From: Planctomycetota bacterium
GTDB lineage: Bacteria; Planctomycetota; PLA2
Length of the DNA stretch: 64,000 nt
Reading direction: 5' to 3'
NCBI GenBank assembly: GCA_021776735.1
Contig: JAJFFH010000041.1
Coordinates: 61,553 to 125,552 of the forward strand
This document shows positions 7,172 to 64,000 of the stretch, piece after piece (position 1 is the stretch's first letter; the number at the start of each line of letters is the position of its first letter). The position numbers and the translations under genes are program-made. The notes beneath the pieces are model-generated. The model ran no database searches. It saw nothing but the letters and a program-made list of their open reading frames with translations, and had not been told where the DNA came from.

Positions 7172-7184
7172 GGAGATGGGCGTC

Positions 7185-29348: not shown

Positions 29349-29350
29349 CC

Positions 29351-31083: not shown

Positions 31084-31153
31084 AGCGCAACATCGGCCTC
31101 ACGCCCGCGACGCCGGGAGCACGACGAAGGTCTAAGAAAGGGAGGAACCAGAC

Positions 31154-33911: not shown

Positions 33912-34103
33912 ATCGCCGTCCGTTTGCTGCCTCGGATCTCCGTCCCCACCGAACCCTATCAGGACGTGATTTCTTGGCGGCCCACTTGCCTTCGTCATAC
34001 CCAGTGCTAAGCCTTACCTGGAAACACACAGTATTGGATCCGGCACTGTTGTCTCGCTTCGGGACGGTCGGATCCGCCTAGGAAGAACACACGAATCGAC
34101 ACC

Positions 34104-48522: not shown

Positions 48523-48609
48523 GTTCTTTTGCTCCTTTTTTTCTCGTCACCCGGCGACGACCGAGTGCTCGTTTCACTTGCTACGGGAGGACTCCGGCGG
48601 CGAGCGCCC

Positions 48610-49132: not shown

Positions 49133-49475
49133 GGGTTGTCCTCCGAAAAAGGCGGTCTCACCCCTAAGTCGCAAAACGGGTCGCGCATTCCGCCACGCAC
49201 GACAGTGCAAAAGCGGTGGGCGGTCTCAGTAACCTCCCGCGCTACCGCGGCTTACGCCGCTTGACGATTGGGGAGAACTGCGCGAGATTTCTTACCGAAG
49301 GTGGATGCGCGCCAATCGTTTGGCGCGAATGGAGCCGCGTTCGCGACCGACGTCCACGTAGACGTACCGCTTGCCACCGGCAGAAGACAGGACAGCGCGG
49401 ACCCAGGGACACCGCCGCATCCCGAACCCGAACACCCCCTTCCCCGCGGCCCCTCCCCAGCCCAAAAGAGCTACG

Positions 49476-50624: not shown

Positions 50625-50734
50625 ACGAAGCAGGCCAGAAGACCCTCGCAGGCGAAAGCGTACGGACGGCGATGTCTTGGAGCTGGCCGTGGTCTTTCGG
50701 CCGGCGGCGCAGGTTTGGACGACCCTCTGCAATT

Positions 50735-50932
50735 CCATACCGAGCCCGGCACAAAAGAGCGACTTTGGCCTCCCTTTTGACGTAACCTCCTGCAAGGCAA
50801 TCACTTACGCCTCCGACGGCCGCGCAGTCCCGTAACTTGTTTCCACATAACGAGTTACGTCTCCCACGCGCCTAAAACCACCCTTTTGTGCCGGGCTCGG
50901 TACTGCCGGCCAGCAGGGCTCGGTACTGCCGG
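50735..50932. repeat. MITE-like element with 17-bp perfect terminal inverted repeats
   Basis: The left arm is CGAGCCCGGCACAAAAG (50741-50757) and the right arm CTTTTGTGCCGGGCTCG (50883-50899), 125 bp apart. An inner palindrome is GTAACTTG...CGAGTTAC. A direct repeat GGCTCGGTACTGCCGG x2 follows. The left end (CCATACCGAGCCCGGCACAAAAGAGCGA) is also present as a solo copy at 4282-4309. Confidence 0.6.
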
Positions 50933-51042
50933 CTGGCAACGCACCCAATCAACAGGGAGCACCCGATGGCTCCGGGGCCGCGGCGGTCCATGGCTTCCGG
51001 AAATCCGTGAGAACTTCCCGGCGCGATTACGTCAAAGCAGAC

Positions 51043-51789
51043 ATGAGAATCGCCGTCGGTTTGCTTACGTTCGTTTCCGCCGCTGTTTCTTGTTGGGCGC
51101 CTCTCGAACTGGGCGCCGCCTTGGCGGAATCCGACCTCGTCGTCGTGGCCACGCTGGAGCGGGACAAGAAACCCAAGCCCGGCTTCGGCACGCTGCGCGT
51201 CCACAAGGTCCTCGCGGGCAAGAAGCCGAAGATCTGCACGCTGCGCTGGCTGCCGGAAAACGTCATGGCTCCCAGCGGCGTCATGCGGCACCACCACCGG
51301 GTCGGGCAGCGACTCGTCTACCTGCTGAAAGAGAACGCGGACGGTTCGTACGGAGCCGGCCACCCCACGCTCATCCAGGATCCGAAACGGCTGCCGGAGC
51401 TTCGCAAGGCCCTGATGGGCCCGCTGTATCGGCTGACGCTGGAAAAGTACTCCGTGAAGACCGGCCGGGCCGTCTGGGCCGTACTCGAGATTCGTACCGT
51501 ACAGCCGAAGCTGACTACCGACCGATGGTTGCAAACGGACGGCGATGTCTTGGAACGCGGCGGCCTGGCGCGGCTCGCATTGCTACGCCAGGGCCAAACC
51601 GAGGTCAGGGGTAAGGTGCGCCAGGCCGCGAAGCCCAGGGGAATCGTGGTCACGCCGGACAAGCCGCACCGTGTTCGCCTCGACCTGCGCCGGTACTTCG
51701 ACCTGAAACCGGACACGTCCTACCGGCTCTGGTTCGGGGAAGGGCCGCAGCGCCGCTCCCGGGTCGCCGTGTTCCGCATCGTCAAGTAG
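51043..51789 (+). CDS. hypothetical secreted protein
   Basis: The start is trimmed to MRIAVGLLTFVSAAVSCWAPLELGAALA (signal peptide). It is Lys/Arg-rich with beta-strands. Confidence 0.5.
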   Translation: MRIAVGLLTFVSAAVSCWAPLELGAALAESDLVVVATLERDKKPKPGFGTLRVHKVLAGKKPKICTLRWLPENVMAPSGVMRHHHRVGQRLVYLLKENADGSYGAGHPTLIQDPKRLPELRKALMGPLYRLTLEKYSVKTGRAVWAVLEIRTVQPKLTTDRWLQTDGDVLERGGLARLALLRQGQTEVRGKVRQAAKPRGIVVTPDKPHRVRLDLRRYFDLKPDTSYRLWFGEGPQRRSRVAVFRIVK

Positions 51790-51856
51790 GGGATCTGTCC
51801 CGGACGAGCACGGGTTACCGAGCCGTTACGGGCGGAGTGCGTTCGCGGGCGTAGTC

Positions 51857-54184
51857 TTGTTTGTGATGAGAAACATCGCCGTCCTTGGCTCCCTTCTGAT
51901 GCTCGCCCTTGTTTCGCCGCGCACGCTCGCGCAGGAGCGGCAGGACACGCTGTTCCTGCACGCGACGCAGGTCGTGGTTCCGCAGCACCGCGCGTACATC
52001 TTGCGCAGAACTTCTGTGTCGCGCCGGATCAGGCCCCCTATTCGGGTGCAGCCCGTCCGCATCGAGGGGGTTTCGGTGCACGTGAAGATTCGCGAGCGCG
52101 CGGCCACGACGACGCTCGAAATCGCGCTCGTGAATCCCGCGGCGCGCCAGGCCGAAGCGGTCTTGCTGCTGCCGGTGCCCGACGGCGCGGCCGTCTCCGC
52201 GTTTCACTTCGACGGGGTCAGCAAGGAGCCGACCGCGCGCATCCTGCCCAAGGACGAGGCGCGGCGCATCTACGACCGCATCGTGCGCAAGATGCAGGAT
52301 CCGGCGTTGCTGGAATTCGCCGGCCACGATCTTGTGCGCTCGAGCGTGTTTCCGGTGCCGGCGCACGGACGCCAGAAGGTGCGGCTCACCTACGACCACA
52401 TGCTCCCGGCGGCAAACGGACGCATCGACTACGAGCTTCCGCGCAGCGAAGCGCTGGACACGGGAGCCCCCTGGAACGTCACGGTCGACATCGTCTCGAA
52501 GGCGCCGATCGCGACGGTCTACTCGCCGAGCCACGCCGTCAAGACGTTTCGCAAGGGCGACAAGCACCTGACCGTAAAACTCGACGGCAAGGCTGATCCG
52601 GGCGCGTTTCGGCTCTCGTACATGATCCAGCGCGATGCGGTCACGGCGTCGCTGTTTGCGTATCCCGATCCCAAGATCGGCGGCGGGTACTTCCTGCTTG
52701 TCGCAGGTATGCCCCCGCGCGGCAAGACGGTCGCCGCGACCGTGAAGCGCGAGGTCACGATCGTGCTCGACCGCTCCGGCAGCATGGCCGGCGAGAAGAT
52801 GGATCAGGCCCGCGCCGCTGCGCTCCAGGTGATCGAGGGGCTGCACGACGGCGAGGCCTTCAACATCATCGACTACTCGACCACCGTCGAGATGCTCGCG
52901 CCGCGACCGTTGATCAAGACCCGCGAGACGCTGCTCAAGGCGCGCCAATACATCGCCGGCCTGCACCCGGTCGGCGGCACCAACATCCACGACGCGCTGG
53001 TCGAAGCACTGCGCCAGGAACGGGTCGACAAAACGATGCTCCCGCTCGTGCTGTTTTTGACCGACGGCCTGCCCACGATCGGCCAAACGTCGGAAAGCGC
53101 GATTCGCAAGGCAGTGGAGACCGGCAATCCGTACCGCCGTAGGGTGTTCACGTTCGGCGTCGGCGACGACGTCAACGCGCCGCTGCTCGACCGCGTCGCC
53201 GAAATGACGCGCGCCGTTCCGACCTACGTGCGCCCGAAGGAAAACGTCGAGGTCAAGGTCGGCGACGTCTTCGCGCGCCTGTACGGCCCGGTGTTCTCCG
53301 ACGGCAAGCTCACCACGGTGGACAGTGGCGGCACGGTCGTCACGGACGTGGCGCACGATCTGATCCCGGCGGTCGTGCCCGACCTGTTCGACGGCGACCA
53401 GCTCGTTGTACTCGGCAAATACCGCGGCAAGGGGCCGCTGCGCTTCCGCCTCAACGGAAGTTTTCTGGGCAAGCCGAAAGCGTTCGACATGTCGTTCTCG
53501 CTCGCCGAAGCGACAACGCGCCACGCGTTTGTCCCGCGCCTCTGGGCCAGCCGGCGCATCGCATACCTGGTCGATCAGATTCGCCAGGCGGGCGGCAACC
53601 TGCCCCGCGGCCACGTCAGCCGCGTCGGCCAATCCATCGCGAACGACCCGCGGTTCAAGGAGCTGTACGCCGAGATCCTGCGCCTGAGCGCCGAGTTCGG
53701 CGTCCTGAGCGAGTACACCGCGTTCCTGGCAACCGAAGGCACGGTGCTGCACGGCTCTCGCAGCCTGGCCTCGTTGCTGCGCGAGCAGCTCGATCGCAAG
53801 GCCGTAAAAACACGCTGGGGCCGCGCCGCCGTGAACCGCGCGCAAGACAACGACCGCGGCAAGAAGCAGGTCGCCGTCGATAAGCGCAACCGCTACACGA
53901 GCCCGGAGGGCAAAACGGTCACCATCAAGGGCTGCCAGCAATACAACGACCGCGCGTACTTCAAGCGCGGCAAGACGTGGATCGACGGCGCGATGATCGC
54001 CGGAAAGTCGGCGCCCAAGACCCTGAAGCCCGACATCACGATCCAGTTCGGTACCCCGGAGTTCACCAAGCTCCTCGGCGAACTCGTGAAAGCCAACCGC
54101 CAGGGCGTGCTCGCGCGCCGCGGCGATCTCTATCTCCGCTTCAAGAACAAGACAATCCTGGTCCGCAACGATTGGAAGGAATAA
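51857..54184 (+). CDS. VIT (vault protein inter-alpha-trypsin) plus von Willebrand factor A domain protein
   Basis: The signal peptide is MRNIAVLGSLLMLALVSPRTLA. The N-terminal region is VIT-like. The vWA domain carries the MIDAS motif TIVLDRSGSM, plus LTDG and FTFGVGDDVN. A long C-terminal domain follows. Confidence 0.8.
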   Translation: MFVMRNIAVLGSLLMLALVSPRTLAQERQDTLFLHATQVVVPQHRAYILRRTSVSRRIRPPIRVQPVRIEGVSVHVKIRERAATTTLEIALVNPAARQAEAVLLLPVPDGAAVSAFHFDGVSKEPTARILPKDEARRIYDRIVRKMQDPALLEFAGHDLVRSSVFPVPAHGRQKVRLTYDHMLPAANGRIDYELPRSEALDTGAPWNVTVDIVSKAPIATVYSPSHAVKTFRKGDKHLTVKLDGKADPGAFRLSYMIQRDAVTASLFAYPDPKIGGGYFLLVAGMPPRGKTVAATVKREVTIVLDRSGSMAGEKMDQARAAALQVIEGLHDGEAFNIIDYSTTVEMLAPRPLIKTRETLLKARQYIAGLHPVGGTNIHDALVEALRQERVDKTMLPLVLFLTDGLPTIGQTSESAIRKAVETGNPYRRRVFTFGVGDDVNAPLLDRVAEMTRAVPTYVRPKENVEVKVGDVFARLYGPVFSDGKLTTVDSGGTVVTDVAHDLIPAVVPDLFDGDQLVVLGKYRGKGPLRFRLNGSFLGKPKAFDMSFSLAEATTRHAFVPRLWASRRIAYLVDQIRQAGGNLPRGHVSRVGQSIANDPRFKELYAEILRLSAEFGVLSEYTAFLATEGTVLHGSRSLASLLREQLDRKAVKTRWGRAAVNRAQDNDRGKKQVAVDKRNRYTSPEGKTVTIKGCQQYNDRAYFKRGKTWIDGAMIAGKSAPKTLKPDITIQFGTPEFTKLLGELVKANRQGVLARRGDLYLRFKNKTILVRNDWKE

Positions 54185-54188
54185 GGAC

Positions 54189-55347
54189 AATGCTCTCCCC
54201 CTCCCGCGCCCGAACTCTCTCATTGGCCCTCCTACTGGCAATGCTCTCCCTGGCATCGGCCCAAGAGGTAACCGAAGTCAAGGACGGCGATGCCTCAAAG
54301 AAAGCGGCCGGCAAAAAAACCGTCGATCTCTGCATTTGCCTCGATACGAGCGGCTCCATGCGTGGGCTGATCGACTCGGCGCGTTCGCGCATCTGGTCGG
54401 TCGTTAATGATCTCGCGCTGGCCAAGCCGACGCCGCGGCTGCGGGTCGCGCTGATCGCGTACGGCGGCGGCAGCTACGATTCAACCAAGGGCTGGGTCCA
54501 GGTCCAGACCGGTTTCACGGAAGATCTCGACCTAGTGTCCAGCAAGCTGTTCGCGCTCAAGGCGACGGGAAGCACGGAGTACGTCGGGCGCGCGCTGCAG
54601 ACCGCGATGGCGTTCGATTGGCAAAAGGGCACCGACGCGCTCAAGCTGATCGTCGTCGCGGGCAACGAGTCCGCCGACCAGGATCCCGCGGTACCGTTTC
54701 GCGACATGTGCAAGACCGCGATCACGGGCGGCGTCATGGTCAACTCGATCTACTGCGGCGCCGCCGGACACGCGGACGCGGCCGGCTGGAAGGAGATCGC
54801 GCTGCTGTCGGACGGACACTACGCCGTCATCGAGCAGCACGGAACCGTGACGCTGCAGTCTCCGTTCGACAAGAAGATCGCCGCGCTCTCGACCGCGGTC
54901 AACTCGACGTACGTCGCCTTCGGCAAAAAGGGCAAGGAAGGGGTGGCGCGTCAGGAAGCGGCCGATAACGACGCGGGCGCGATGGGCGAAGATACCGCCG
55001 CGTTGCGTGGCAGCTCCAAGGCCAGCAAGCTCTACTACAACCGCTGGTGCCTCATCGACAGCCTGGACCGCAGACAGGTGAAGCTCGAGGAGGTCAAGGA
55101 CAAGGATCTGCCCAAGGAGATGCGGGGCATGACACTCGAGCAAAAAAAGGCGCACCTCGACAAGAAGCGCGCCGAGCGCAAGAAGATCCAGGCCGAGATC
55201 AAGGTGATCAGCGCGAAGCGTGCCGGATGGATCGCGACCGAGATGAAGAAGCGCGCGATCAAGGACAACCGATCGTTCGACGCCGCGGTGCGCAAGGCGA
55301 TCCGCGCGCAGGCCAAGCAAAAGGGCTATAAGTTCGAGCAGGAGTAG
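54189..55347 (+). CDS. secreted von Willebrand factor A domain protein
   Basis: The signal peptide is MLSPSRARTLSLALLLAMLSLASAQE. The vWA MIDAS motif is DLCICLDTSGSM, with IVVAGNE. The C-terminal region is Lys/Glu-rich coiled coil. Confidence 0.75.
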
Positions 55348-55352
55348 CCCGC

Positions 55353-56030
55353 ATGGCCCGCACAGTTCTCGTAGTCGAAGACGATGCCGCGATTCGCCGC
55401 GGCATCGTCGATACCCTCGCCGCCGGCGGGTACCGCGCGCTCGAAGCGGGTGCCGGCGACGAGGCGCTCAAGATGGCGCTGGAGCAGGATCCCGATCTGT
55501 TGGTGCTCGACATCAAGCTGCCCGCGATGGACGGCTTCACGGTGCTCGAGGAGCTGCGCAAGTCGCGCCCGTCGCTGCCCGTGATCATCGTGACCGCACT
55601 CGGCAACGAGTCGGACCGCGTGCGCGGTTTGCGCATCGGCGCGGACGACTACGTCGTAAAGCCGTTTTCCGCGCTGGAGCTTCTCGAACGCGTCAAGGCG
55701 GTCCTGCGTCGCTCCGCCGAGCGCCCGGAAACGGTCGGCACGATCGAGATCGCCGGGCGGACGATCAACCTCGAAGAACGCCTGATCACGTTTGCCGACG
55801 GACACACCTCAGACATCTCCGAGAAGGAAGCCGAGTTGCTGCAATACCTCGCGGCCTCGCGCGGCCGGACCGTGAGCCGCGACGAGTTGTTGCAGCATGT
55901 CTGGGGTCTTGATCCGAAGGGGGTCTCGACGCGCACGATCGACATGCACATCGCGCGGCTGCGCGACAAGCTCGGCGACGACGCCGGTCTGATCGCCACG
56001 GTGCGCGGCAAGGGCTACCGGCTCGCGTGA
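55353..56030 (+). CDS. OmpR-family two-component response regulator
   Basis: The receiver domain carries the phospho-acceptor Asp in VLVVEDD...LLVLDIKLPAMDGF...YVVKPF. The C-terminal winged-helix is RDELLQHVWG...TRTIDMHIARLRDKL. Confidence 0.9.
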   Translation: MARTVLVVEDDAAIRRGIVDTLAAGGYRALEAGAGDEALKMALEQDPDLLVLDIKLPAMDGFTVLEELRKSRPSLPVIIVTALGNESDRVRGLRIGADDYVVKPFSALELLERVKAVLRRSAERPETVGTIEIAGRTINLEERLITFADGHTSDISEKEAELLQYLAASRGRTVSRDELLQHVWGLDPKGVSTRTIDMHIARLRDKLGDDAGLIATVRGKGYRLA

Positions 56031-57637
56031 CGACACGCTGGCTGTGGCCCGGATTCATCGCGACAAACATCGCCGTCCTTGGCGTTCTCGCCTGGGCTTC
56101 GGCCAAGGTGATGGAGCTCGAGCGCAACGAGACCCGTGCTCTCGCGGATGCCCGGAACGAGAAGCGCTTCCGGGTCGCCATGCGCGAGGTCGAGCAAGAC
56201 GTGCTTTTGTTCCTCGAGCGCGAGCAGACGCGGCCGCCGCGTTCCTACCGGCCGTTCGCCGAGTTGCCACGTCGCGCGTACGCCAAGCGCGACCTCCAAC
56301 AGATCGAGCAGGACGAGATTCTCGCGCAGTCCGAGTTGCTGGGCGAGGACAAGCCGGCGTTCACGTTGCTGCACTTCGAGACGAACCGCGACGGCGAGGT
56401 TGTGTCGCCGCAGGTGCCGGGCGCGAACTACTACGAGATTTGCGGCATCGCGCCAGCCACGATCGAAAAAAACAAGACGCACCTGGCGCGCGTGCGACAG
56501 ATGGTGGACGTGCGCGAGCTCGCGCGGCAGGTCGCGCGCGAGACGGCGTGGCGAAACGCCCGCGGCGACCAGCGCGCGGGCAAGAAGATGAAGGGCGCCG
56601 ACAACGTCGACGCGACGATCGGTCCGCTGCAACCGGTACTGCACGACGGTGAGCTGTTCTTCATGCGCGAAATCCGCCACGCGGGCCGCTACTTCCAGGG
56701 GTTCCTCATCGACTGGCCGAGCCTGCGCGCGCACCTGCTCGGCCTGATCCATCCGCGCTTTCCCGGCGCGAGACTCCGGCTCGTCGCCGACGATGCCGCG
56801 CGCAACCTCGTGTCCCTACCGGCGACCCTCACGGTCGTGCGCCCGCCCGTCGGCCGCCGCGGCTGGACGGCGTCGCACACGGTGCTGCTTACGACGTGGC
56901 TCGTCGTCGGGTTCGCACTCGCGGTCGCGGGCGCCGCACTGCACCGCGCGCTCACGTTCGGACAAAAGCAGCGCCGCTTCGCGAGCAACGTCACGCACGA
57001 ACTGCGCTCGCCGCTCACGACGTTTCGGCTGTACTCCGAGTTGCTCGCCGCGGGCCTCGTCCCCGACGACGAAAAGAAGGCGGAGTATCACGCCACGCTG
57101 CACCGCGAGTCGGGCCGCATGGCGCAGATGGTGGAAAACGTCATCGCGCACGCCCGCCTCGAAGAGGGCCGCGCGCACATGCAACCCCGCCCGATCGCCA
57201 TCGGCGCGCTCCTCGAAGACTGTCGTCCGGACCTCGAGCGCCGCGCAGGCGTCCACCCGCTGACGATCGAAACCGACGCGGTCAAAGACATCGCCGTCCT
57301 GGCCGATCCCGCCGCCGTCGGCCAGATCCTGGTCAACCTGATCGAGAACGCCGCAAAATACGCCCCGGGCCCGATCACGCTGCGCGCCCAAGTCCACCAC
57401 CGCACCGCACGCCTGCACGTCCGCGACCAGGGCCCCGGCATCCAACCCGACGAAGCCCGCCGCATCTTCCAACCCTTCGACCGCGGCCACAAAGACGAAA
57501 CCGACCCGGTCCGCGGCCTGGGCCTGGGCCTCGCGTTGGCCAGAGGTCTGGCGCACGACCTGGGCGGCGACCTGACGCTGGAACATCCGGACGCCGGCGG
57601 CGCCTGCTTTGTCCTGACGCTGCCCTTGGCGGGGTAG
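56027..57637 (+). CDS. sensor histidine kinase
   Basis: The GTG start overlaps the regulator gene stop. There are two TM helices and a periplasmic domain. The H-box is SNVTHELRSPLT, the N-box LVNLIENAAKYAP, the G1 box RDQGPGI and the G2 box GLGLGLALARGLA. Confidence 0.9.
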   Translation: MTTRWLWPGFIATNIAVLGVLAWASAKVMELERNETRALADARNEKRFRVAMREVEQDVLLFLEREQTRPPRSYRPFAELPRRAYAKRDLQQIEQDEILAQSELLGEDKPAFTLLHFETNRDGEVVSPQVPGANYYEICGIAPATIEKNKTHLARVRQMVDVRELARQVARETAWRNARGDQRAGKKMKGADNVDATIGPLQPVLHDGELFFMREIRHAGRYFQGFLIDWPSLRAHLLGLIHPRFPGARLRLVADDAARNLVSLPATLTVVRPPVGRRGWTASHTVLLTTWLVVGFALAVAGAALHRALTFGQKQRRFASNVTHELRSPLTTFRLYSELLAAGLVPDDEKKAEYHATLHRESGRMAQMVENVIAHARLEEGRAHMQPRPIAIGALLEDCRPDLERRAGVHPLTIETDAVKDIAVLADPAAVGQILVNLIENAAKYAPGPITLRAQVHHRTARLHVRDQGPGIQPDEARRIFQPFDRGHKDETDPVRGLGLGLALARGLAHDLGGDLTLEHPDAGGACFVLTLPLAG

Positions 57638-58077: not shown

Positions 58078-58165
58078 ATGGCACAGTATCCCTACGGTGC
58101 CAGGCGATCCTGCGGCGCCGTGGCGACCGCGCTCTCCCCGAATCGCGCCATCGGACTGGCCCGAG
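58078..58165. repeat. left copy of an intergenic repeat unit (GGCACAGTATCC ... CTCTCC(C/G)CGAATCGCGCCATCGGACTGGC) that also flanks the PD40 gene on the right (60218-60370)
   Basis: CTCTCCCCGAATCGCGCCATCGGACTGGC is at 58135-58163 and CTCTCCGCGAATCGCGCCATCGGACTGGC at 60222-60250. GGCACAGTATCC is at 58080-58091 and 60354-60365. TGCCAGGCGATCCTGCGGC at 58099 is the reverse complement of GCCGCAGGATTGCCTGGCA at 60341. Confidence 0.7.
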
Positions 58166-58500
58166 TCGGGCCGCATGGCGCAGATGGTGGAAAACGTCAT
58201 CGCGCACTCGCGCCTCGAAGAGGGGCGCGCGCGCATGCAACCGCGCCCGATTGCACTCGGCACGCTCCTCGAAGAGTGCCGCCCGGATCTGGAGCGCCGC
58301 GCAGGCGTCCACCCGCTGACGATCGAAACCGACGCGGTCAAAGACATCGCCGTCCTGGCCGATCCCGCCGCCGTCGGCCAGATCCTGGTCAACCTGATCG
58401 AGAACGCCGCAAAGTACGCCCCGGGCCCGATCACGCTGCGCGCCCAAGTCCACCACCGCACCGCACGCCTGCACGTCCGCGACCAGGGCCACCCCAGCGG
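58161..58500 (+). pseudogene. duplicated fragment of the histidine kinase HATPase region (copy of 57106-57435, ~93% identity), not a functional gene
   Basis: A nucleotide-level near-repeat of the HK gene segment encoding GRMAQMVENVIAH(A/S)RLEEGRA...LVNLIENAAKYAPGPITLRAQVHHRTARLHVRDQG. It lacks the H-box and a start codon, and it is preceded by intergenic repeat sequence. Confidence 0.6.
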
Positions 58501-58504
58501 CGCC

Positions 58505-60121
58505 ATGCAACGGAGCAGACTCCCTCGACGGACCTCGCCACTGAGTACCGCACGTCCTCGGCTACAATCGCGCGCAGTGTCGTGGCTCAAGGTTCTGGTA
58601 TTCGTGGCGCTGATCGCGGCTGCGTATCTCCTCTCGCGCCACAGAGCCACGCCCTCCATGGTGCCGCAAGGCGAGGTACAAGTCGGCGCGGACCATGAAC
58701 TGGAGTTCCGCGCCGAGACCGTGGCAATCCCTGGTGGACGACGATTTCATCTGTCGTCGCGGAACGGAGTCGTCGATTTGGTGTTGCTCGACGCCAAGGG
58801 CGCTGGACGGTTTGCGTTCGGCGATGGACGATTTGAACAGCGCACCGCTGAGCCCGGAGCGGGCTTTGTTTCGGATGTTGCGGCGTGGCTCGACAAGTCG
58901 ACACCGCCTCGAAAACCGGGCCGGCTTGCAACATTCCTCTTCTCCTACGTGCGCCTCGGCGCAACAGACGGCTGGGAAGCGAACAAACTGTTTCTGCGCT
59001 TCGGTGCCCGCGAAGCCGAGGTGTATCTGAACGTCGCGCCCGATGGCAAGCGCGTCCGCCTCCTGGAGAAACATCAGGACTACGCGGCCGACTTGCTCGC
59101 AGTACTCGCCATCGCCGTGCGGGACGGAATCCCTCCGCGCAGATCGACAAGCAGCGACAAGCACATGGCCTCGGACGAACCCCTGTTTGCTCGGCCCACT
59201 TCGCTGACCGCGCAGGGTCGGCTCCACGACGGAGTGTGGTCGACGACGGGATTCGTCGGAATCATCGACAACCGCCGCGTCGTGCATTGGGCGAGCCCCG
59301 GGGCAGAGCCGACAACGGTCGGGACATCGATCGGTATCGTCACGGCACTGGCGCCTGCGCCCCGTAGCACTCGGATCGCCGCCGTGGTTGTGCATCCGAA
59401 GCGGGACGGTTCCTACTCAAGCGAGGATCCGACCGAACTGGTGATCTTCATGCCCGGAAACGAACCGCGTACGCTGTTGCGCTCTGAGGTGGAATTCAAG
59501 CTGATGAGTCACGCATCGGTGGTCTGGTCACCGGATGGGACACGCCTTGCCGTCTCAGCGCCCGGCGGCAAGAAAGTCCCACGGAAGAGCCACGTGAGGG
59601 TCATCGACGCCCGCTCCGCGGAGGTGCTGCAGAGCACGGAGAAGGCGCTGGACCTGGAACCGGTGCTGTGGTCGGCGAAGGGGCTGACGTTGGTGCGGCG
59701 CGACTTTGTAGGCGCGGACATCCTTGAATCGCACTACTCGTGGGATCCGGAGCACGGAGTTCCGAAGAAACTGCCCGCGCTGAAAGGTGTTTCGTCACCT
59801 GACGGTCGTTTCCTGGTCGGGGCGGAGGGCCAAGGTGTCCTGGTTGTCTGGGGTCCCGATGGATCGCGAAGATACGCCAGCCAGTCTGAAGAAGACCGTG
59901 CCGTCGTGAGTTCCTTGAGCGAGTTTCCGATCGTCTGGTGTGGTCCACACCACGTCGTGCTGGGAACAGATGATCCTGTCGTACTCGACCTCAATACACT
60001 CACCGTGCGACTGCTGTTCCCTGCGCGGGCCTGGACCCTGGTCGCGGCGAGTCCTGACGGCGACAACGTACTGTGCCTTTCGCCAGACGGTGAAGCGCAT
60101 TGGGGGAGTACGAAAAAGTGA
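58505..60121 (+). CDS. membrane-anchored PD40/TolB-like beta-propeller repeat protein
   Basis: The ORF track fuses this gene to the upstream HK fragment. The likely start is the ATG at 58505 or the GTG at 58578, before the TM helix WLKVLVFVALIAAAYLL. The C-terminal half has WSPDG/SSPDG/ASPDG/LSPDG repeats typical of PD40 blades. Confidence 0.5.
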   Translation: MQRSRLPRRTSPLSTARPRLQSRAVSWLKVLVFVALIAAAYLLSRHRATPSMVPQGEVQVGADHELEFRAETVAIPGGRRFHLSSRNGVVDLVLLDAKGAGRFAFGDGRFEQRTAEPGAGFVSDVAAWLDKSTPPRKPGRLATFLFSYVRLGATDGWEANKLFLRFGAREAEVYLNVAPDGKRVRLLEKHQDYAADLLAVLAIAVRDGIPPRRSTSSDKHMASDEPLFARPTSLTAQGRLHDGVWSTTGFVGIIDNRRVVHWASPGAEPTTVGTSIGIVTALAPAPRSTRIAAVVVHPKRDGSYSSEDPTELVIFMPGNEPRTLLRSEVEFKLMSHASVVWSPDGTRLAVSAPGGKKVPRKSHVRVIDARSAEVLQSTEKALDLEPVLWSAKGLTLVRRDFVGADILESHYSWDPEHGVPKKLPALKGVSSPDGRFLVGAEGQGVLVVWGPDGSRRYASQSEEDRAVVSSLSEFPIVWCGPHHVVLGTDDPVVLDLNTLTVRLLFPARAWTLVAASPDGDNVLCLSPDGEAHWGSTKK

Positions 60122-60495
60122 GATCGCAAGCGCGGTCGATAGCCCGACACGGAAGTGAGAGACACGGAGTCAACCCGATTGGCCGGGCCGATCGCGCGAA
60201 ACCATCCGGGCGGCGCTGCTCTCCGCGAATCGCGCCATCGGACTGGCGCGATTTCGGCCCTAGTCGGTGCGGCAGGATTACATGGCGCCGTACTCTCCTT
60301 ATCGCGCCACGGGCCTGGCGCGACTCACCGCGGATCGTTGCCGCAGGATTGCCTGGCACAGTATCCGACATGAAGCTCCTGACGCGCTGATGCTCCCCGG
60401 CAAGGCGATCCCCCGCTCAGCCCCCTTCCCCCACATTCCGAAATCCGATCTGAAACGATCCGATCGGCCCGGGAACTCGTTATCGGAATCAGACG

Positions 60496-63400
60496 ATGAC
60501 GGCTCGTTCGCGGATTGATCCTGAAGCGCTGCTCGCGCATCGCGACTTCGTGCGGGCGCTTGTGCTGCGGCTCGTTGGGGAGCCGCACGCGGCCGACGAT
60601 GTCGTGCAGGAGACTTGGCTCGCGGCGTTGCAGAACGCGCCCGCTCGGCCGCGATCGCTGCGGGCGTGGCTCGCTCGCGTGGCGCGCAATCTCGCGTTGC
60701 GACACGCGCGCCGGGAGGTCCGGTTGCGCCAGCGCGCACGCAAGGCCCCGCAGCCCGACGCGCCTCGCGATCCGGCAGGCGCGCTCGAACGCGTCCACGC
60801 CGAACACGCCGTCGTCGCCGCGCTGCTCGAACTCGACGAGCCGTACCGCACCACGCTCCTGCTGCGCTATTACGACGACCTCGCCCCACGCGAAGTCGCG
60901 GCGCGGCTCGGCGTCCCGGCAGCGACCGTCCGCACGCGGCTCAAGCGCGGCCTCGACACGCTGCGCGCGCGCCTCGACCAACAACACGGCGGACCCGACG
61001 GCGGCCGACGCGCCTGGGCGCTCCCGCTCATCCCGCTCCTGATTCCGATCGCGGCCGTCAAAGGGGCGGCGGCAACCACGGGAGGAATCGTGCTCATGAC
61101 CGGCAAAGGCAAGGCACTCGCCGCGGCGGCACTCCTACTCGCCGCGCTGCTCGGCTTCTGGAAACTCTCCGACCGCGCCGGCACGCCGCGCGCACGCACT
61201 GATGCCGAGCGTCCCACGCAAGGCGGTCCGATCACGAGAAAGCAAACGGACAGCGATGTTCCCGAGCCGGCGCGCGACCGAGCGACTGTCGCCGTCGCGG
61301 TGCGCGTCCTGGACCCCGACGGCCACCCTGTTCCGGACGCGCAGGTCGGCGCCTACGCCATGGCTCACATCGAGCTCGGCGTGCCGCTGTTCACCGGACA
61401 AGACGACCTCTTCGCGGTTTCAAAACCGGTGCTGACCCGTCGCACCGACGCAGCCGGCGAGGCGTCGTTTCCCCTCCCCCTGTCCACGAGCACGGTGTTT
61501 GAAGCGACGGCGCAGAGCCATGCACGGGCACGCTCACGCGTCGTGGCGCTGCCCGCCGGCAGCACGGCTCCGCCTCCGGTCGTCCTACACCTGCGCCCGG
61601 CGCACGCGCTCACCGGCACCGTGCGCGACGACACGGGGGCACCGTGGCCGGGTGTCGCCGTGTGGTTGACGTCGCCCACGTTCGGCCAGCGTCTTCCCGT
61701 TCGCGAGTTGGCGGCCCGCACGATCACGGACAAGCTGGGGCGTTATCGCTTCGGCGATTCGGCTGCGGGTGACTACGGCCTTTGGTGCGGCTCCCCGGCC
61801 GCGAGCCCGTCGCGCCGGGCGATCGTGCGACTGCCTCACGTCACCGTGTTCGATGTCGTGCTGCCGCGCGGTGGTTGCGTGCACGGTGTCGTCACGCGAA
61901 CCGATACCGGCGCGCCCGTCGCCGGCGCTACGGTCGAGATCCACGGCGTGAAGGGCTCGCTCACGAAGGTCCGCACGAACGCGCAGGGCGAGTACCGCGT
62001 CGCGCATCTCGGCGGCCGCGCCGTTTTCCGCATCCGGGCGCGCGCCGCCGGCTTGTGCCTGCGCCTCGAAAACAACGGACAGGACCACCGCTGGATCCCG
62101 CTCGGCGCGGACGAGACCTACCGCCACGACCTGAAGCTCGAGTCGGCGCCCGAGGTGTACGGCGTCGTCCGCGGCCCCGACGGGCCGCTCGCCGGCATCG
62201 CCATCGCCGCGTATCACCAGGCGCCTCAGTGGCACCTCAACGGCGCGCGCACGGTCACGGACTCCGAGGGCCGCTATCGGTTGTCCGTCGCCCCCGTCCG
62301 CCACCAACTCAGCGCCGCAGGCGGCGGCTTCGCGGTCCCCGCTAACCAGCAGTGGCTTCGTCCGCTCGACCAGGCGACCGGCAGCGAACCGTTCGTCGTC
62401 GATGTTCCCGAGCGCGGTGCGATCCGTTGCGATCTTGAACTTGCGTCCATGCGCGCCGGGGGAATTCGCCTCGCCGGACGCGTGACCAACGACACGGACG
62501 ATCCGGTCGCCGGGGCCCTGGTCAGTGTGTTCATGCAACGTACCTGGACCGACGCTGCCGGCGCGTTCGAGCTCGACGGAATCAAGGGCGAGCAGACGTG
62601 GGTCGTTGTTGCCGCCGACGGCTTTCGCACGATCCAAAAAAGCATCGCCGTCCGTTCCGGTAGTCCGATCTCGCTCACGCTGGAACGCGCGCGCACCGTG
62701 ACCGGCCGGGTCACCGCCGGCGACGGCGCGACACTGGACGACGCCGCGGTTCTGATCGCGGTCTTGCCTCGCGGCTGGGCCCGCACTCGGGACCGCGCCG
62801 CGAAGTTCGACGCGCTCTGGAGCCGCGCCGAGCGCGTGCGCGCCGCCCGCGACGGATCGTTCACGTTCACGGTTGTCGATGGCCGCCTCCGCTACGTGCG
62901 CGCGACGGCCCGCGGGCGGTCGCTCGGGCCGCCCGTCGCTCTCGGCTCCGGCGACACCGAGCTCGTGCTGACCGTGCCGGAGGGCGGCGCTCGAACCGGG
63001 CGCGTGCTCGACGCCGACTCCGGAGAGCCGATCGCCGGCGCTCGGATTCGCACGCAAGGGATAGGAGCGGCGCGACACAACCCGTTCGCCAAGGACGGCG
63101 ATGCCTTTGGACCGAATGCGCCCGTCGTGGCCGTGTCCGCCGCGGACGGAACGTTCGTGGTCGCGCGGGCCCCCACGCATCGAGTTCGCGTTGCGGTGGA
63201 AGCGTTCGGCTACCGGCCGCACGAAGTCGTCGCGGACGAGTCGATCGGCGAGGTGCGTCTCGCGCCGAATGCCGTCGGCCTCGCGGGAACCGTGCGCTAC
63301 GACGACGGCGCGCCCGCCATCGGTCTTGTCGTGTTCGCCGATCCTGCGGACGGCAAGTCACGACGCGTGTCCGGTCTCGGCACGAGTCCGACCGGCCGCT

Positions 63401-64000
63401 TCGAACTGCGCGGACTGCGCGACGCCTCCTACCGCATCACGGTCGGCGGCCGCGGTTCGATCACGCGCACGAGTAGACCAATGCGGCCCGGACGCGCGGG
63501 ACTGGTGCTCACGGTACGTCGCGCGCGAGCGGGCGAGGACGAGATCCATCCGCGGCCTGTTGAGGGCGACGGCGTTCTCGCGGGGCATGTGGTCGACTTC
63601 TCCGGGCACGGGATAGCGGACGCGAAGATTCGGGTGCAGTGGAAACGGGGAATGCGTGCCGGCACAACCAACGCGGACGGCGCCTTCTCGATCCGCGGAC
63701 TGGCCGACGGCGAGTACCGCGTCTCCGCCAACCTGCCCGGAGGCTGGTTCCCCCAGTCCATCGACGGCGTGAAACCGGGCACAACGACGCTGCGGCTGGA
63801 GTTCGGTACGGTGACCGGGGTCGTCGTGGACGAAAACGGACAACCGGTCGCCGGCGTCGCGCTCCGGGCGCATCCACGGCCCTTCAACTCCAAACGCGGC
63901 TTTCGCGAGGTCCGCACGGGCCAAGACGGCCGGTTCACGATTACGGGCCTCTTGCGCGAGCAATACAAGCTGACGTTGAAACAGGAGCGCGGGCAGCCGG
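60496..64000 (+). CDS. ECF sigma-70 factor fused in one polypeptide to a TM helix and a long array of carboxypeptidase-regulatory-like (CarboxypepD_reg) beta-sandwich repeats (partial; continues past the window end)
   Basis: The ATG at 60496 opens a frame that is stop-free to position 64000 (>1167 codons). Sigma region 2 is ALLAHRDFVRALVLRLVGEPHAADDVVQETWLAALQ, and region 4 is TLLLRYYDDLAPREVAARLGVPAATVRTRLKRGL. The TM helix is ALAAAALLLAALLGFW. At least 8 repeats follow of the pattern G-x-V-x-D-x-x-G-x-P-x-x-G-A-x-V...DG-x-F/Y...L-x-x-G-x-Y (e.g. GTVRDDTGAPWPGVAVWL, GVVTRTDTGAPVAGATVEI, GRVTNDTDDPVAGALVSV, GRVLDADSGEPIAGARIRT, GHVVDFSGHGIADAKIRV, GVVVDENGQPVAGVALRA). It is absent from the ORF track because there is no in-window stop. 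Confidence 0.75.
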   Translation, partial: MTARSRIDPEALLAHRDFVRALVLRLVGEPHAADDVVQETWLAALQNAPARPRSLRAWLARVARNLALRHARREVRLRQRARKAPQPDAPRDPAGALERVHAEHAVVAALLELDEPYRTTLLLRYYDDLAPREVAARLGVPAATVRTRLKRGLDTLRARLDQQHGGPDGGRRAWALPLIPLLIPIAAVKGAAATTGGIVLMTGKGKALAAAALLLAALLGFWKLSDRAGTPRARTDAERPTQGGPITRKQTDSDVPEPARDRATVAVAVRVLDPDGHPVPDAQVGAYAMAHIELGVPLFTGQDDLFAVSKPVLTRRTDAAGEASFPLPLSTSTVFEATAQSHARARSRVVALPAGSTAPPPVVLHLRPAHALTGTVRDDTGAPWPGVAVWLTSPTFGQRLPVRELAARTITDKLGRYRFGDSAAGDYGLWCGSPAASPSRRAIVRLPHVTVFDVVLPRGGCVHGVVTRTDTGAPVAGATVEIHGVKGSLTKVRTNAQGEYRVAHLGGRAVFRIRARAAGLCLRLENNGQDHRWIPLGADETYRHDLKLESAPEVYGVVRGPDGPLAGIAIAAYHQAPQWHLNGARTVTDSEGRYRLSVAPVRHQLSAAGGGFAVPANQQWLRPLDQATGSEPFVVDVPERGAIRCDLELASMRAGGIRLAGRVTNDTDDPVAGALVSVFMQRTWTDAAGAFELDGIKGEQTWVVVAADGFRTIQKSIAVRSGSPISLTLERARTVTGRVTAGDGATLDDAAVLIAVLPRGWARTRDRAAKFDALWSRAERVRAARDGSFTFTVVDGRLRYVRATARGRSLGPPVALGSGDTELVLTVPEGGARTGRVLDADSGEPIAGARIRTQGIGAARHNPFAKDGDAFGPNAPVVAVSAADGTFVVARAPTHRVRVAVEAFGYRPHEVVADESIGEVRLAPNAVGLAGTVRYDDGAPAIGLVVFADPADGKSRRVSGLGTSPTGRFELRGLRDASYRITVGGRGSITRTSRPMRPGRAGLVLTVRRARAGEDEIHPRPVEGDGVLAGHVVDFSGHGIADAKIRVQWKRGMRAGTTNADGAFSIRGLADGEYRVSANLPGGWFPQSIDGVKPGTTTLRLEFGTVTGVVVDENGQPVAGVALRAHPRPFNSKRGFREVRTGQDGRFTITGLLREQYKLTLKQERGQP

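What the first reader, a model, noticed from the sequence alone, without database searches (positions are those of the whole stretch)
60496..64000. Single-polypeptide ECF sigma factor, TM helix and at least 8 CarboxypepD_reg-like repeats (membrane-tethered sigma with giant extracytoplasmic sensor array)
From the ATG at 60496 one frame stays open to the window end (>1167 codons). The first ~170 aa are a complete ECF sigma factor, with region 2 (ETWLAAL) and region 4 (LLLRYYDDLAPREVAARLGVPAATVRTRLKRG). A TM helix follows (AAALLLAALLGFW).

After the TM comes a long array of ~90-aa beta-sandwich repeats with the G-x-V-x-D-x-x-G-x-P-x-x-G-A-x-V signature of carboxypeptidase-regulatory-like domains.

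The cognate anti-sigma appears to have been replaced by covalent tethering of the sigma factor to the membrane, with an extracytoplasmic repeat array as the presumptive sensor. This may imply regulated proteolysis for release.

The six-frame track missed the gene entirely. The opposite strand shows only long artefact ORFs.
Basis: partly seen in the sequence, partly recalled or inferred. Interest (0 to 1): 0.65.

Follow-up and report, generated by a model that had tools for sequence, protein, structure and literature searches.

The report
Membrane-anchored ECF sigma factor fusion
This is a real 1354-residue gene that joins a small alternative sigma factor, one membrane-spanning helix and twelve beta-sandwich repeats outside the cell; it belongs to a very large, uncharacterised family of Planctomycetota proteins and is interesting but not a new kind of system.

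Summary
The frame from ATG 60496 is open to the window end. The full protein was recovered from an identical public contig: 1354 aa, with the stop 558 nt past the window.

Architecture:
- ECF sigma2 and sigma4 domains (aa 14-163)
- a conserved juxtamembrane motif (GG-D-R-R-A-W-x-L-A-L-x-P-L; W174 kept in 99% of 137 relatives)
- one TM helix (aa 206-227)
- a disordered spacer
- 12 CarboxypepD_reg/transthyretin-like repeats, and nothing else

The fusion is not an artefact. 78 of 79 related genome loci, and 145 of the 148 closest cluster representatives, have the sigma domain followed by a hydrophobic segment. Most are 600-1400 aa. No anti-sigma domain is detectable. There is no adjacent anti-sigma gene, no site-2 protease among the ORFs scanned, and no conserved neighbourhood.

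The best reading is a single-pass, N-in/C-out "one-component" sigma factor released by regulated proteolysis. That step is inferred, not shown.

The kind is known (IutY, ECF48/52/53, planctomycetal ECFs with large C-terminal extensions). This gene is a repeat-rich member of it. What seems undescribed is the conserved Trp motif where an anti-sigma domain would sit. Interest is moderate to low.

The parts
60496..64000 (+). Coding sequence of the sigma-TM-repeat fusion protein. The window holds codons 1-1168. The full gene is 1354 codons and stops 558 nt beyond the window end.
   Evidence: Open frame. 100% identity over 1168 aa to P0112, which is 1354 aa. L080 bases 1-5540 equal window 58461-64000 with 0 mismatches; the gene is L080 2036-6100.
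60535..60723 (+). Sigma-70 region 2 (aa 14-76), including DDVVQETW.
   Evidence: Pfam PF04542, E 1.6e-14. AF2 pLDDT 93-98.
60808..60984 (+). Sigma-70 region 4 (aa 105-163), helix-turn-helix for the -35 element.
   Evidence: Pfam PF08281 (2.3e-11) and PF04545 (2.5e-08). AF2 pLDDT 94-98. Foldseek matches sigma4 structures at rmsd about 1 A.
60985..61110 (+). Conserved cytoplasmic juxtamembrane segment (aa 164-205): H-G-G-(D)-R-R-A-W-x-L-x-L-x-P-L, a variable stretch, then G-x-x-x-M-x-x-K-x-K. No known family matches it.
   Evidence: Alignment of 30 genome homologues. Conservation over 137 representatives: W174 0.99, G169 0.93, L178 0.91, R171 0.88, P180 0.85, G197 0.91. AF2 helix 172-182 with pLDDT about 85. 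No Pfam or NCBIfam anti-sigma hit at E<=10.
61111..61176 (+). Single transmembrane helix (aa 206-227, KALAAAALLLAALLGFWKLSDR).
   Evidence: Kyte-Doolittle maximum of 1.89 at aa 207-225. AF2 helix 206-227. 94% of 137 relatives have a TM-grade window here.
61177..61284 (+). Extracytoplasmic spacer (aa 228-263). It is Pro/Arg/Thr/Asp-rich and not conserved.
   Evidence: AF2 pLDDT 45-58 with no secondary structure. Mean consensus fraction 0.26.
61285..61587 (+). Beta-sandwich repeat 1 (aa 264-364).
   Evidence: Self-built repeat HMM, iE 2e-24. Pfam Big_1 and CarboxypepD_reg.
61600..61863 (+). Repeat 2 (aa 369-456).
   Evidence: iE 4e-24.
61870..62076 (+). Repeat 3 (aa 459-527).
   Evidence: iE 5e-21.
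62146..62391 (+). Repeat 4 (aa 551-632).
   Evidence: iE 7e-27.
62461..62682 (+). Repeat 5 (aa 656-729).
   Evidence: iE 3e-24. This is the best Pfam CarboxypepD_reg stretch, aa 659-728.
62689..62976 (+). Repeat 6 (aa 732-827).
   Evidence: iE 2e-22.
62983..63246 (+). Repeat 7 (aa 830-917).
   Evidence: iE 3e-18.
63271..63516 (+). Repeat 8 (aa 926-1007).
   Evidence: iE 5e-27.
63568..63804 (+). Repeat 9 (aa 1025-1103).
   Evidence: iE 1.5e-28. AF2 model has pLDDT 94.3 and seven strands. Nearest PDB folds are the carboxypeptidase N/D/M transthyretin-like domain, CnaB/SdrD/UafA B-repeats, the teneurin TTR domain and the SusC NTE domain.
63802..63999 (+). Repeat 10 (aa 1103-1179), cut by the window end. 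Repeats 11 (aa 1186-1268) and 12 (aa 1272-1341) lie beyond the window.
   Evidence: Pfam on the C-terminal 246 aa of L080 finds 3 CarboxypepD_reg stretches, 8.4e-26.

Best explanation
The gene encodes a single-pass (N-in, C-out) membrane protein. A complete ECF sigma factor is its cytoplasmic head. A conserved segment of about 40 residues and one TM helix anchor it to the cytoplasmic membrane. A disordered spacer and a stalk of 12 transthyretin-like beta-sandwich domains form the extracytoplasmic part.

It is one member of a very large family, mainly from Planctomycetota. In this family the same sigma-motif-TM module is combined with different ectodomains, most often CarboxypepD_reg arrays.

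The most likely mode of action is a "one-component" sigma factor. While anchored, the sigma domain is held inactive, by the membrane tether and/or by the conserved Trp motif folding back on the sigma domains. An extracytoplasmic event acting on the stalk or spacer leads to site-1 cleavage. Intramembrane cleavage of the Ala-rich TM helix by a site-2 protease encoded elsewhere then releases the sigma domain to bind RNA polymerase.

Shown: gene integrity, domain composition, family-wide conservation of the fusion and the motif, absence of a recognisable anti-sigma domain or partner gene, and predicted single TM helix.

Inferred: topology (from hydrophobicity, AF2 and the usual extracellular location of such repeats), inactivity of the tethered form, every proteolytic step, and the nature of the signal.
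For: Gene and domains.

The fusion is conserved:
- 79 genome loci, mostly Planctomycetota, plus Kofleriaceae, Binatia and the cultured Engelhardtia mirabilis Pla133.
- In 78 of them the sigma match sits in one ORF, typically 700-1430 aa, with a hydrophobic segment near aa 190-240.
- Nine of nine full-length ORFs tested are Sigma70_r2 + r4_2 + CarboxypepD_reg.
- 2308 50%-identity cluster representatives match aa 1-265 at E<=1e-30. Of the top 148, 145 have the hydrophobic segment and 123 are at least 600 aa. Of those 123, 117 carry 1-12 repeats.

Orthologue P0114 aligns colinearly over all 12 repeats at 35% identity, so the array is stably inherited.

Single TM. K204 and K206 are conserved on the cytoplasmic side.

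No anti-sigma domain or gene.

Precedent for proteolytic release of a membrane-anchored sigma fusion: IutY is cut by Prc and RseP, and the same is predicted for ECF48/52/53 (PMC8999054). The nearest solved sigma sequences, M. tuberculosis SigE and B. subtilis SigW, have membrane anti-sigma factors that are degraded by regulated proteolysis (established knowledge).
Against: - No protease site, processed form or site-2 protease gene could be examined. None is encoded among the 35 window ORFs or 6 L080 ORFs scanned.
- The positive-inside signal is weak: 1.72 versus 1.31 K+R in the 12 residues on either side of the TM.
- No conserved upstream promoter dyad was found that would indicate autoregulation.
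- No conserved neighbouring genes give a functional hint.
- After intramembrane cleavage the conserved motif would stay attached to the sigma domain. If it is inhibitory, a further trimming step is needed.
- The ectodomain consists only of stalk-type domains with no obvious ligand-binding tip, so calling it a sensor is an assumption.
Confidence: 0.55

Rival explanations
1. The sigma factor works while still anchored, as ToxR and CadC do. It recruits RNA polymerase and promoter DNA to the membrane. The ectodomain controls activity through clustering or conformation, without any proteolysis.
For: No protease gene is linked to the locus or conserved near homologues. About 40 residues between sigma4 and the membrane could give enough reach. 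Membrane-bound one-component transcription activators are established (general knowledge).
Against: A sigma factor must be buried in the roughly 400-kDa holoenzyme, with sigma4 on the beta-flap. No membrane-tethered active sigma is reported in the reviews read (PMC8999054, PMC8103513). The only tested fusion, IutY, needs cleavage.
Confidence: 0.15
2. The conserved Trp motif is a minimal built-in anti-sigma peptide. It would be comparable in size to class-II anti-sigma factors such as CnrY. It would dock on sigma4 or sigma2, and signalling would relieve this autoinhibition by conformational change rather than by cutting the protein.
For: The motif is as conserved as the sigma domains (mean consensus fraction 0.55, against 0.60 for sigma2 and 0.67 for sigma4; W174 0.99). 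AF2 predicts a helix at aa 172-182 with pLDDT about 85, next to low-confidence flanks. This suggests it packs against something.
Against: No coordinates or contacts were available, so docking was not seen. There is no sequence similarity to any anti-sigma family. How a rigid single TM helix would transmit a conformational signal is unclear. The motif could equally be a membrane-interface helix or a recognition site for a protease or adaptor.
Confidence: 0.12
3. The fusion is an evolutionary by-product. A duplicated sigma2-sigma4 cassette landed in front of a pre-existing surface-protein gene, as proposed for planctomycetal ECFs in PMC7671368. The extension has no regulatory role. It might only localise the protein, or the protein might mainly be a surface stalk.
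For: The same sigma-motif-TM module occurs with unrelated ectodomains: FGE-sulfatase in P0143 and domains of about 200 aa with no Pfam hit in P0028, P0049 and others. Paralogues are numerous within a genome. A truncated sigma-only copy sits 560 nt upstream of a full fusion in L081. Neighbourhoods are not conserved.
Against: The junction is not fortuitous. The motif, the K-x-K, the TM helix and W222 are conserved across 137 diverged representatives. An orthologue keeps all 12 repeats in order at 35% identity. That implies purifying selection on the whole protein.
Confidence: 0.1
4. The protein has a two-TM hairpin (aa 173-195 and aa 206-227), which would leave the repeats in the cytoplasm.
For: In this particular protein aa 173-193 reach a Kyte-Doolittle score of 1.8 over 19 residues.
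Against: This segment aligns with the R-A-W-x-L-A-L-x-P-L motif. The motif is too short and too polar to span the membrane in 88% of relatives. It contains three prolines. AF2 splits it into two short helices, the second with low confidence. CarboxypepD_reg, CnaB and TTR repeats are typical of secreted or surface proteins.
Confidence: 0.04
5. The fusion is an assembly or sequencing artefact that joins a sigma gene to a downstream gene.
For: The best genome hit, L001, is split into two overlapping frames. This shows that such loci do sometimes carry frameshifts in MAGs.
Against: The window and a separately assembled Logan contig have identical DNA. The protein is also recorded from an NCBI assembly with a 148,983-bp contig. 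The fusion is the rule across the family.
Confidence: 0.01

Closest known systems
IutY of Pseudomonas putida (ECF243 sigma/anti-sigma hybrid)
   Same: One polypeptide with an N-terminal ECF sigma domain, one TM segment and a C-terminal periplasmic part. Release by regulated intramembrane proteolysis (Prc, RseP) is experimentally shown (PMC8999054).
   Different: IutY keeps a FecR-type anti-sigma domain between the sigma domain and the TM, and it signals through a TonB-dependent transducer. Here there is no FecR or other anti-sigma hit, the linker is only about 40 aa, no TonB-dependent receptor gene was found nearby, and the ectodomain is a 12-repeat stalk.
ECF52 (SCO4117 of Streptomyces coelicolor), ECF48 and ECF53
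   Same: An ECF sigma domain fused to a membrane-spanning C-terminal extension with a proline-rich extracytoplasmic stretch and a beta-rich (carbohydrate-binding) domain. Activation by proteolysis is proposed (PMC5826349 abstract; PMC8999054).
   Different: Those are actinobacterial and carry a zinc-finger (ZAS-type) anti-sigma element before the TM. The window protein has no Cys at all in aa 1-430 and no His/Cys motif in aa 160-205 (sequence). Its extension is far longer.
Planctomycetal ECFs with large C-terminal extensions (ECF57 / former ECF01-Gob; the clade analysed by Pinto and da Fonseca 2020)
   Same: The same phylum, many paralogues per genome, conserved sigma2/sigma4 with large and highly variable C-terminal extensions of varied Pfam content, and no conserved genomic context (PMC7671368; PMC7826278). 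This matches.
   Different: ECF57 is described with WD40-like repeats and two conserved cysteines linking sigma2 and sigma4 (PMC8999054). Neither is present here. Group assignment with the ECF Hub models could not be run. That ECF01-Gob has a TM helix right after sigma4 is my recollection of Jogler et al. 2012, a paper not held here.
Canonical sigmaE-RseA and SigW-RsiW systems
   Same: The closest solved sigma sequences and folds. The overall logic is the same: cytoplasmic sigma, single-pass membrane partner, extracytoplasmic sensing, and site-1 then site-2 proteolysis (established knowledge).
   Different: In those systems the sigma factor and the membrane protein are separate chains held together by a 4-helix anti-sigma domain. 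Here they are one chain and no such domain is present.
RsgI-sigmaI systems of Bacilli and Clostridia
   Same: A single-pass membrane regulator whose extracytoplasmic part consists of a disordered juxtamembrane region plus beta-sandwich modules that contact polymers of the cell envelope or substrate, coupled to intramembrane proteolysis (abstracts of PMC9732909 and PMC10575876; further details from general knowledge).
   Different: RsgI is an anti-sigma factor that is separate from sigmaI. There is no sequence relationship.
NOMO (eukaryotic ER protein built of 12 consecutive transthyretin-like domains plus one TM)
   Same: Weak Pfam hits to NOMO1-like_9th, NOMO_3rd and EMC7_beta-sandw. A rod of about 12 similar beta-sandwiches anchored by one TM helix. 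NOMO's role as a luminal spacer is recalled from memory and is only a lead.
   Different: NOMO has no sigma domain and is eukaryotic. The similarity is at the level of the fold and the repeat number only.

Membership tests
ECF (group 4) sigma-70 family sigma factor | Sigma2 and sigma4 domains are present, and sigma1.1 and sigma3 are absent. | tested here: met
   Pfam finds Sigma70_r2 and r4_2/r4 only. TIGR02937 scores 75.6 bits against a cut-off of 42.9. AF2 pLDDT is above 90 over both domains. The fold matches ECF sigma structures.
ECF (group 4) sigma-70 family sigma factor | Binds core RNA polymerase and directs transcription from cognate promoters. | not testable with these tools
   No conserved upstream promoter dyad was found among 76 upstream regions.
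Named ECF subfamilies in NCBIfam (SigE-Streptomyces type, SigW, SigK, Rhodopirellula/Verrucomicrobium gvs1 and others) | Score at or above the curated cut-off of the subfamily model. | tested here: not met
   All specific models fall far below their cut-offs, for example TIGR02983 at 73.9 against 141.6 and TIGR02989 at 54.4 against 124.6.
Sigma/anti-sigma fusion of the IutY type (ECF243) | A FecR-type anti-sigma domain between sigma4 and the TM helix. | tested here: not met
   No FecR hit in the whole protein. No anti-sigma family in aa 158-263 at E<=10.
ECF48/52/53 fusions | A zinc-finger (ZAS-like) element before the TM helix. | tested here: not met
   There is no Cys in aa 1-430 and no zf-HC2 hit.
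ECF57 (planctomycetal, C-terminal extension) | WD40-like repeats in the extension and two conserved Cys linking sigma2 and sigma4, as described in PMC8999054. | tested here: not met
   There is no WD40 or PQQ hit in the protein and no Cys in the sigma domains. The review applies these features to "some members" only.
ECF57 or any other ECF Hub group | Assignment by the ECF Hub group HMMs on the sigma2-sigma4 core. | not testable with these tools
The supplementary group descriptions are not held.
CarboxypepD_reg (PF13620) repeat proteins | Pfam score above the gathering threshold and a seven-strand transthyretin-like sandwich. | tested here: met
   259.5 bits against 32.3, in 10 stretches. Three more stretches lie in the C-terminal part. 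The AF2 model of repeat 9 has pLDDT 94 and its neighbours include carboxypeptidase N/D/M domains.
Substrates of regulated intramembrane proteolysis (site-1 then site-2 protease) | Cleavage in the ectodomain followed by cleavage within the TM helix by an M50 protease. | not testable with these tools
   No Peptidase_M50 hit among the ORFs scanned in the window and in L080. The rest of the genome was not available.
Single-pass type II (N-in/C-out) membrane proteins | One TM helix, with the N-terminus in the cytoplasm. | tested here: inconclusive
   One confident helix at aa 206-227. Family-wide there is one TM-grade segment. The charge bias is weak. No dedicated topology predictor was available, and orientation rests on the sigma domain having to be cytoplasmic.

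The most novel reading that the evidence does not exclude
The whole family could be a self-contained three-in-one signalling device, in three parts:
- The near-invariant Trp motif directly after sigma4 would be a previously undescribed minimal intramolecular anti-sigma element.
- The stalk (12 domains here; roughly 40-50 nm if extended, which is my estimate at about 3.5-4 nm per domain) would act as a mechanical or proteolytic tripwire. It would span the planctomycetal periplasm and report envelope damage, outer-layer detachment or foreign proteases.
- Any cut in the stalk or spacer would license site-2 cleavage and release of the sigma factor.

With thousands of diverged members, this would be one of the largest unrecognised classes of bacterial transmembrane signalling proteins.
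Probability: 0.15. Interest if true: 0.6.

Novelty: new member of a known kind. Interest (0 to 1): 0.33.

Why it matters
[quoted passage not shown] This locus shows that one very large planctomycetal family puts the sigma factor, the membrane anchor and the extracytoplasmic part in one chain, with no recognisable anti-sigma domain. At least 2308 50%-identity cluster representatives match aa 1-265 at E<=1e-30.

That raises a concrete, testable question: how is a sigma factor kept silent, and how is it released, when no anti-sigma is present? The conserved Trp motif is an obvious target for mutagenesis. A homologue exists in a cultured strain, Engelhardtia mirabilis Pla133.

For annotation, such genes are currently named only "sigma-70 family RNA polymerase sigma factor". 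Their membrane and surface nature is therefore missed.

Tried and rejected
1. Recovering the 3' end.
   - The word-indexed protein search with aa 1-265 gave only proteins of 443 aa or less, with a best identity of 59%. That wrongly suggested the source was absent and the relatives short.
   - The genome-contig scan found only 31-51% relatives.
   - An exact 48-mer search in metagenome contigs found nothing.
   - The exhaustive HMMER search found the identical 1354-aa protein, and the encoding-contig look-up returned its DNA.
2. Conserved gene neighbourhood. All-against-all BLASTP of ORFs within 7 kb in 79 loci gave a largest cluster of only 10 loci with mixed position and strand. No partner gene emerged.
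3. Shared ECF-type promoter. A dyad search (4-mer, N15-19, 3-mer) in 76 upstream regions gave only GC-rich noise equal to the reverse-strand control. A GGAAC-N17-CGA match right at the ATG of the window gene is probably chance. The sigma-70 promoter and terminator scan was uninformative.
4. Split versions that might expose an ancestral anti-sigma.
   - P0027 is a sigma-only protein followed by a secreted protein with its own signal peptide, not an anti-sigma.
   - P0031 is a truncated paralogue next to a full fusion.
5. Site-2 protease nearby. None was found among the ORFs scanned. A few ORFs shorter than 310 aa were not scanned.
6. Domain orientation in the AF2 model. Foldseek gives global rmsd of 12-18 A to both anti-sigma-bound and holoenzyme sigma structures, so nothing can be said about a closed or open state.
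7. Literature. No paper in the held library links an ECF sigma factor with CarboxypepD_reg repeats. Jogler 2012 and Wiegand 2020 are not held. The supplements of the two classification papers are not held.
8. Rfam on the whole window gave no hits.

Full report
**Observation**

The frame starting at ATG 60496 is open for 1168 codons to the end of the window. An in-frame stop lies at 60451-60453, and there is no alternative start codon before the ATG. Codon-position GC is 0.75/0.56/0.82, the same pattern as the other genes in the window.

The ORF list omits the gene only because it runs off the window end. The long antisense ORFs, such as 61585-63222 (545 aa), are the usual high-GC artefacts.

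Domain evidence:
- Pfam finds Sigma70_r2 (aa 14-76), Sigma70_r4_2 (aa 105-155) and ten CarboxypepD_reg stretches at E 1.7e-78.
- NCBIfam places the N-terminus in the general ECF superfamily, above the cut-off. It places it in none of the named subfamilies.
- The nearest solved sequences and folds are ECF sigma factors: M. tuberculosis SigE/SigL/SigH, B. subtilis SigW, AlgU and RpoE. They match over aa 10-161 only.

**Full length**

The word-indexed protein search missed the protein. So did the genome scan and an exact 48-mer metagenome scan. The exhaustive HMMER search returned P0112, 1354 aa, which is 100% identical over all 1168 residues in the window.

The contig encoding it is L080, from Logan assembly SRR15505515 (25,962 bp). 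It is base-for-base identical to the window over the 5540 shared bases. The same protein is also on record from an NCBI assembly with a 148,983-bp contig. The stop codon lies 558 nt beyond the window end.

A repeat HMM built from the protein itself finds 12 repeats:

| Repeat | Residues |
|---|---|
| 1 | 264-364 |
| 2 | 369-456 |
| 3 | 459-527 |
| 4 | 551-632 |
| 5 | 656-729 |
| 6 | 732-827 |
| 7 | 830-917 |
| 8 | 926-1007 |
| 9 | 1025-1103 |
| 10 | 1103-1179 |
| 11 | 1186-1268 |
| 12 | 1272-1341 |

The protein ends right after the twelfth repeat, with no further domain. Repeat 9 models as a seven-strand sandwich with pLDDT 94. Its structural neighbours are the transthyretin-like domain of carboxypeptidases N/D/M, CnaB-type B-repeats of Gram-positive adhesins and pilins, the teneurin TTR domain, an S-layer protein and the N-terminal extension of a SusC transporter. 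These are stalk or spacer modules of surface proteins. None is a dedicated ligand-binding domain.

**Junction and topology**

The protein has two hydrophobic stretches, aa 173-193 and aa 206-225. Aligned with 30 genome homologues, the first one corresponds to a family motif directly after sigma4: L-D-x-x-H-G-G-D-R-R-A-W-x-L-A-L-x-P-L-A.

Over 137 diverged representatives the conservation is W174 99%, G169 93%, L178 91%, R171 88% and P180 85%. After a variable stretch come G197 (91%), M201 (72%) and K204/K206 (63-71%), then the TM helix ending in W222 (72%). The motif's mean conservation is 0.55. That is close to sigma2 (0.60) and sigma4 (0.67), and far above the TM helix (0.34), the spacer (0.26) and repeat 1 (0.22).

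Only 12% of relatives reach TM-grade hydrophobicity in the motif region, against 94% in the second segment. AlphaFold predicts three elements in this region (64-sequence alignment):
- the sigma domains at pLDDT 93-98
- a short helix at aa 172-182 at about 85
- one long helix at aa 206-227, followed by a disordered spacer

The family is therefore single-pass. The sigma domain must be cytoplasmic, so the repeats are outside. The charge bias supports this only weakly.

Between sigma4 and the TM there are about 40 residues. That is too short for a four-helix class-I anti-sigma domain. There is no cysteine for a zinc-binding anti-sigma motif. No Pfam or NCBIfam family matches even at E<=10.

**The fusion is real and common**

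The genome scan returned 79 loci:
- mostly Planctomycetota MAGs
- two Kofleriaceae
- one Binatia
- the cultured Engelhardtia mirabilis Pla133

In 78 of them the sigma match lies in a single ORF, typically 700-1430 aa where the contig allows, with a hydrophobic segment near aa 190-240. All nine full-length ORFs tested are Sigma70_r2 + r4_2 + CarboxypepD_reg. The exception, L001, has two overlapping frames that together span about 1360 codons, which looks like a frameshift.

In the 1.84-billion-protein library, 2308 50%-identity representatives match aa 1-265 at E<=1e-30. Of the top 148:
- 145 have the hydrophobic segment.
- 123 are at least 600 aa.
- 117 of those 123 have 1-12 repeats, most often 3-4.

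The window protein sits at the top of that range. Orthologue P0114 (1337 aa) aligns colinearly through all twelve repeats at 35% identity, so the array is inherited position by position.

The same sigma-motif-TM module also occurs with other ectodomains. P0143 has an FGE-sulfatase domain, and several proteins of about 400 aa have no Pfam hit in that part. Many MAGs hold several paralogues. One locus has a truncated sigma-only copy just upstream of a full fusion.

**Context**

Upstream, on the same strand:
- a VIT-VWA protein and a VWA protein
- an OmpR-type response regulator and a histidine kinase
- a 552-aa protein with no family hit
- a 375-nt intergenic region

Downstream:
- an Amidohydro_2 gene and a HEAT-repeat gene, both on the opposite strand
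- an unknown gene
- an 821-aa protein with one weak CarboxypepD_reg hit

No Peptidase_M50 or anti-sigma gene was found among the ORFs scanned. No gene family recurs near the homologues; the largest cluster covers 10 of 79 loci. No shared upstream dyad was found.

**Mechanism**

The anatomy is that of a canonical sigma / membrane anti-sigma pair collapsed into one chain, but without the anti-sigma domain. The most economical reading is a membrane-anchored, inactive sigma factor released by regulated proteolysis. There would be a first cut in the exposed stalk or the disordered spacer, then intramembrane cleavage of the Ala-rich helix by the site-2 protease that nearly all bacteria encode.

The precedent is IutY, where Prc and RseP do exactly this. 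The same is predicted for the actinobacterial ECF48/52/53 fusions (PMC8999054).

None of these steps is shown here. The near-invariant Trp motif is the most informative new detail. It may hold the sigma domain inactive as a minimal intramolecular anti-sigma. It may lie at the membrane interface. Or it may be a recognition site for a protease or adaptor. If it is inhibitory, it would have to be trimmed after release.

Rivals:
- transcription from the tethered state, as with ToxR
- purely conformational signalling
- a functionally neutral fusion produced by duplication and insertion, as proposed for planctomycetal ECFs in PMC7671368

The strong conservation of the junction and the colinear orthologue argue against the last rival.

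**Comparison and novelty**

Three things are already published:
- Membrane-spanning ECF fusions (PMC8999054, PMC5826349).
- C-terminal extensions as the second most common mode of ECF regulation (PMC7826278).
- Planctomycetal ECFs with large, variable extensions, many paralogues and no conserved context (PMC7671368; PMC7826278).

NCBI names close relatives "sigma-70 family RNA polymerase sigma factor".

The protein fails the stated hallmarks of the IutY type (FecR domain), of ECF48/52/53 (zinc finger) and of ECF57 as described in the review (WD40 repeats, two cysteines). Its ECF Hub group could not be determined. I found no paper in the held library that describes the sigma-TM-CarboxypepD_reg architecture or the Trp motif.

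I therefore file it as a new, unusually repeat-rich member of a known kind, with one feature, the motif in place of an anti-sigma domain, that deserves a specialist's look.

**Verdict**

| Aspect | Result |
|---|---|
| Observation | confirmed |
| Architectural interpretation | supported |
| Mechanistic interpretation | plausible but untested |
| Interest | 0.33 |

Noticed in passing
window 58097-58166, 60209-60364; L080 6210-6360 (135-260 nt past the stop of the gene, beyond the window): A composite intergenic repeat flanks the sigma-fusion gene on both sides. It consists of a hairpin, AATCGCGCC-N8-GGCGCGATT, followed about 20 nt later by the 17-mer GCAGGATYRCCTGGCAC. There are two tandem units of about 71 nt upstream, about 1.5 units downstream, and one more copy in the next intergenic region upstream. 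Shuffled sequence gives about 0 matches. The RNA fold is not better than shuffles (z = -1.1). It could be a REP/MITE-like element or an array of regulator binding sites.
   Followed up: partly
window 60985-61110 (aa 164-205) and homologues: A family-wide motif, H-G-G-D-R-R-A-W-x-L-A-L-x-P-L, sits directly after sigma4 (W 99% conserved in 137 representatives). It matches no Pfam or NCBIfam family and I did not find it described in the literature searched.
   Followed up: partly
window 51707-57637: Four genes lie on the same strand: a VIT-VWA protein (825 aa), a VWA protein (456 aa), an OmpR-type response regulator and a histidine kinase. They lie 2.9-8.8 kb upstream of the sigma gene. No link to the sigma gene is supported by the other loci.
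   Followed up: no
L081 5001-5636 and 6195-9404: In another Planctomycetota MAG, a 211-aa sigma-only paralogue keeps the Trp motif but lacks the TM helix. It sits 560 nt upstream of a full 1069-aa sigma-TM-CarboxypepD_reg fusion. This looks like a tandem duplication with truncation.
   Followed up: partly
L001 9971-14051: The best genome-collection hit is split into two overlapping ORFs in different frames (372 aa and 1042 aa). This is a probable frameshift, either an assembly error or a pseudogene, in an otherwise colinear homologue of about 1360 aa.
   Followed up: partly
P0143 (770 aa), P0028, P0049 and similar proteins: The same sigma-motif-TM module is joined to other ectodomains. P0143 has an FGE-sulfatase domain. 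A group of proteins of about 400 aa has a shared C-terminal ending (…VTVERELSL..P) and no Pfam hit.
   Followed up: partly
window 27786-30402: Adjacent DUF4331 (E 2e-141) and DUF4198 genes. DUF4198 also gives weak hits inside the repeats of the sigma-fusion protein.
   Followed up: no
window 30496-32845: An NfeD-like gene followed by an SPFH/Band 7 gene, a classic membrane-protein pair.
   Followed up: no
(tool behaviour): The word-indexed protein search returned only relatives of 443 aa or less and missed the identical 1354-aa protein. The exhaustive search found the identical protein and showed that most relatives are 600-1400 aa. Length distributions from the indexed search are misleading for this family.
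   Followed up: yes
window 7104-8825, 17906-19261, 34011-36344, 46018-48546, 49362-51786: Several long ORFs with coding-type GC3 (420-843 aa) have no Pfam hit at all.
   Followed up: no
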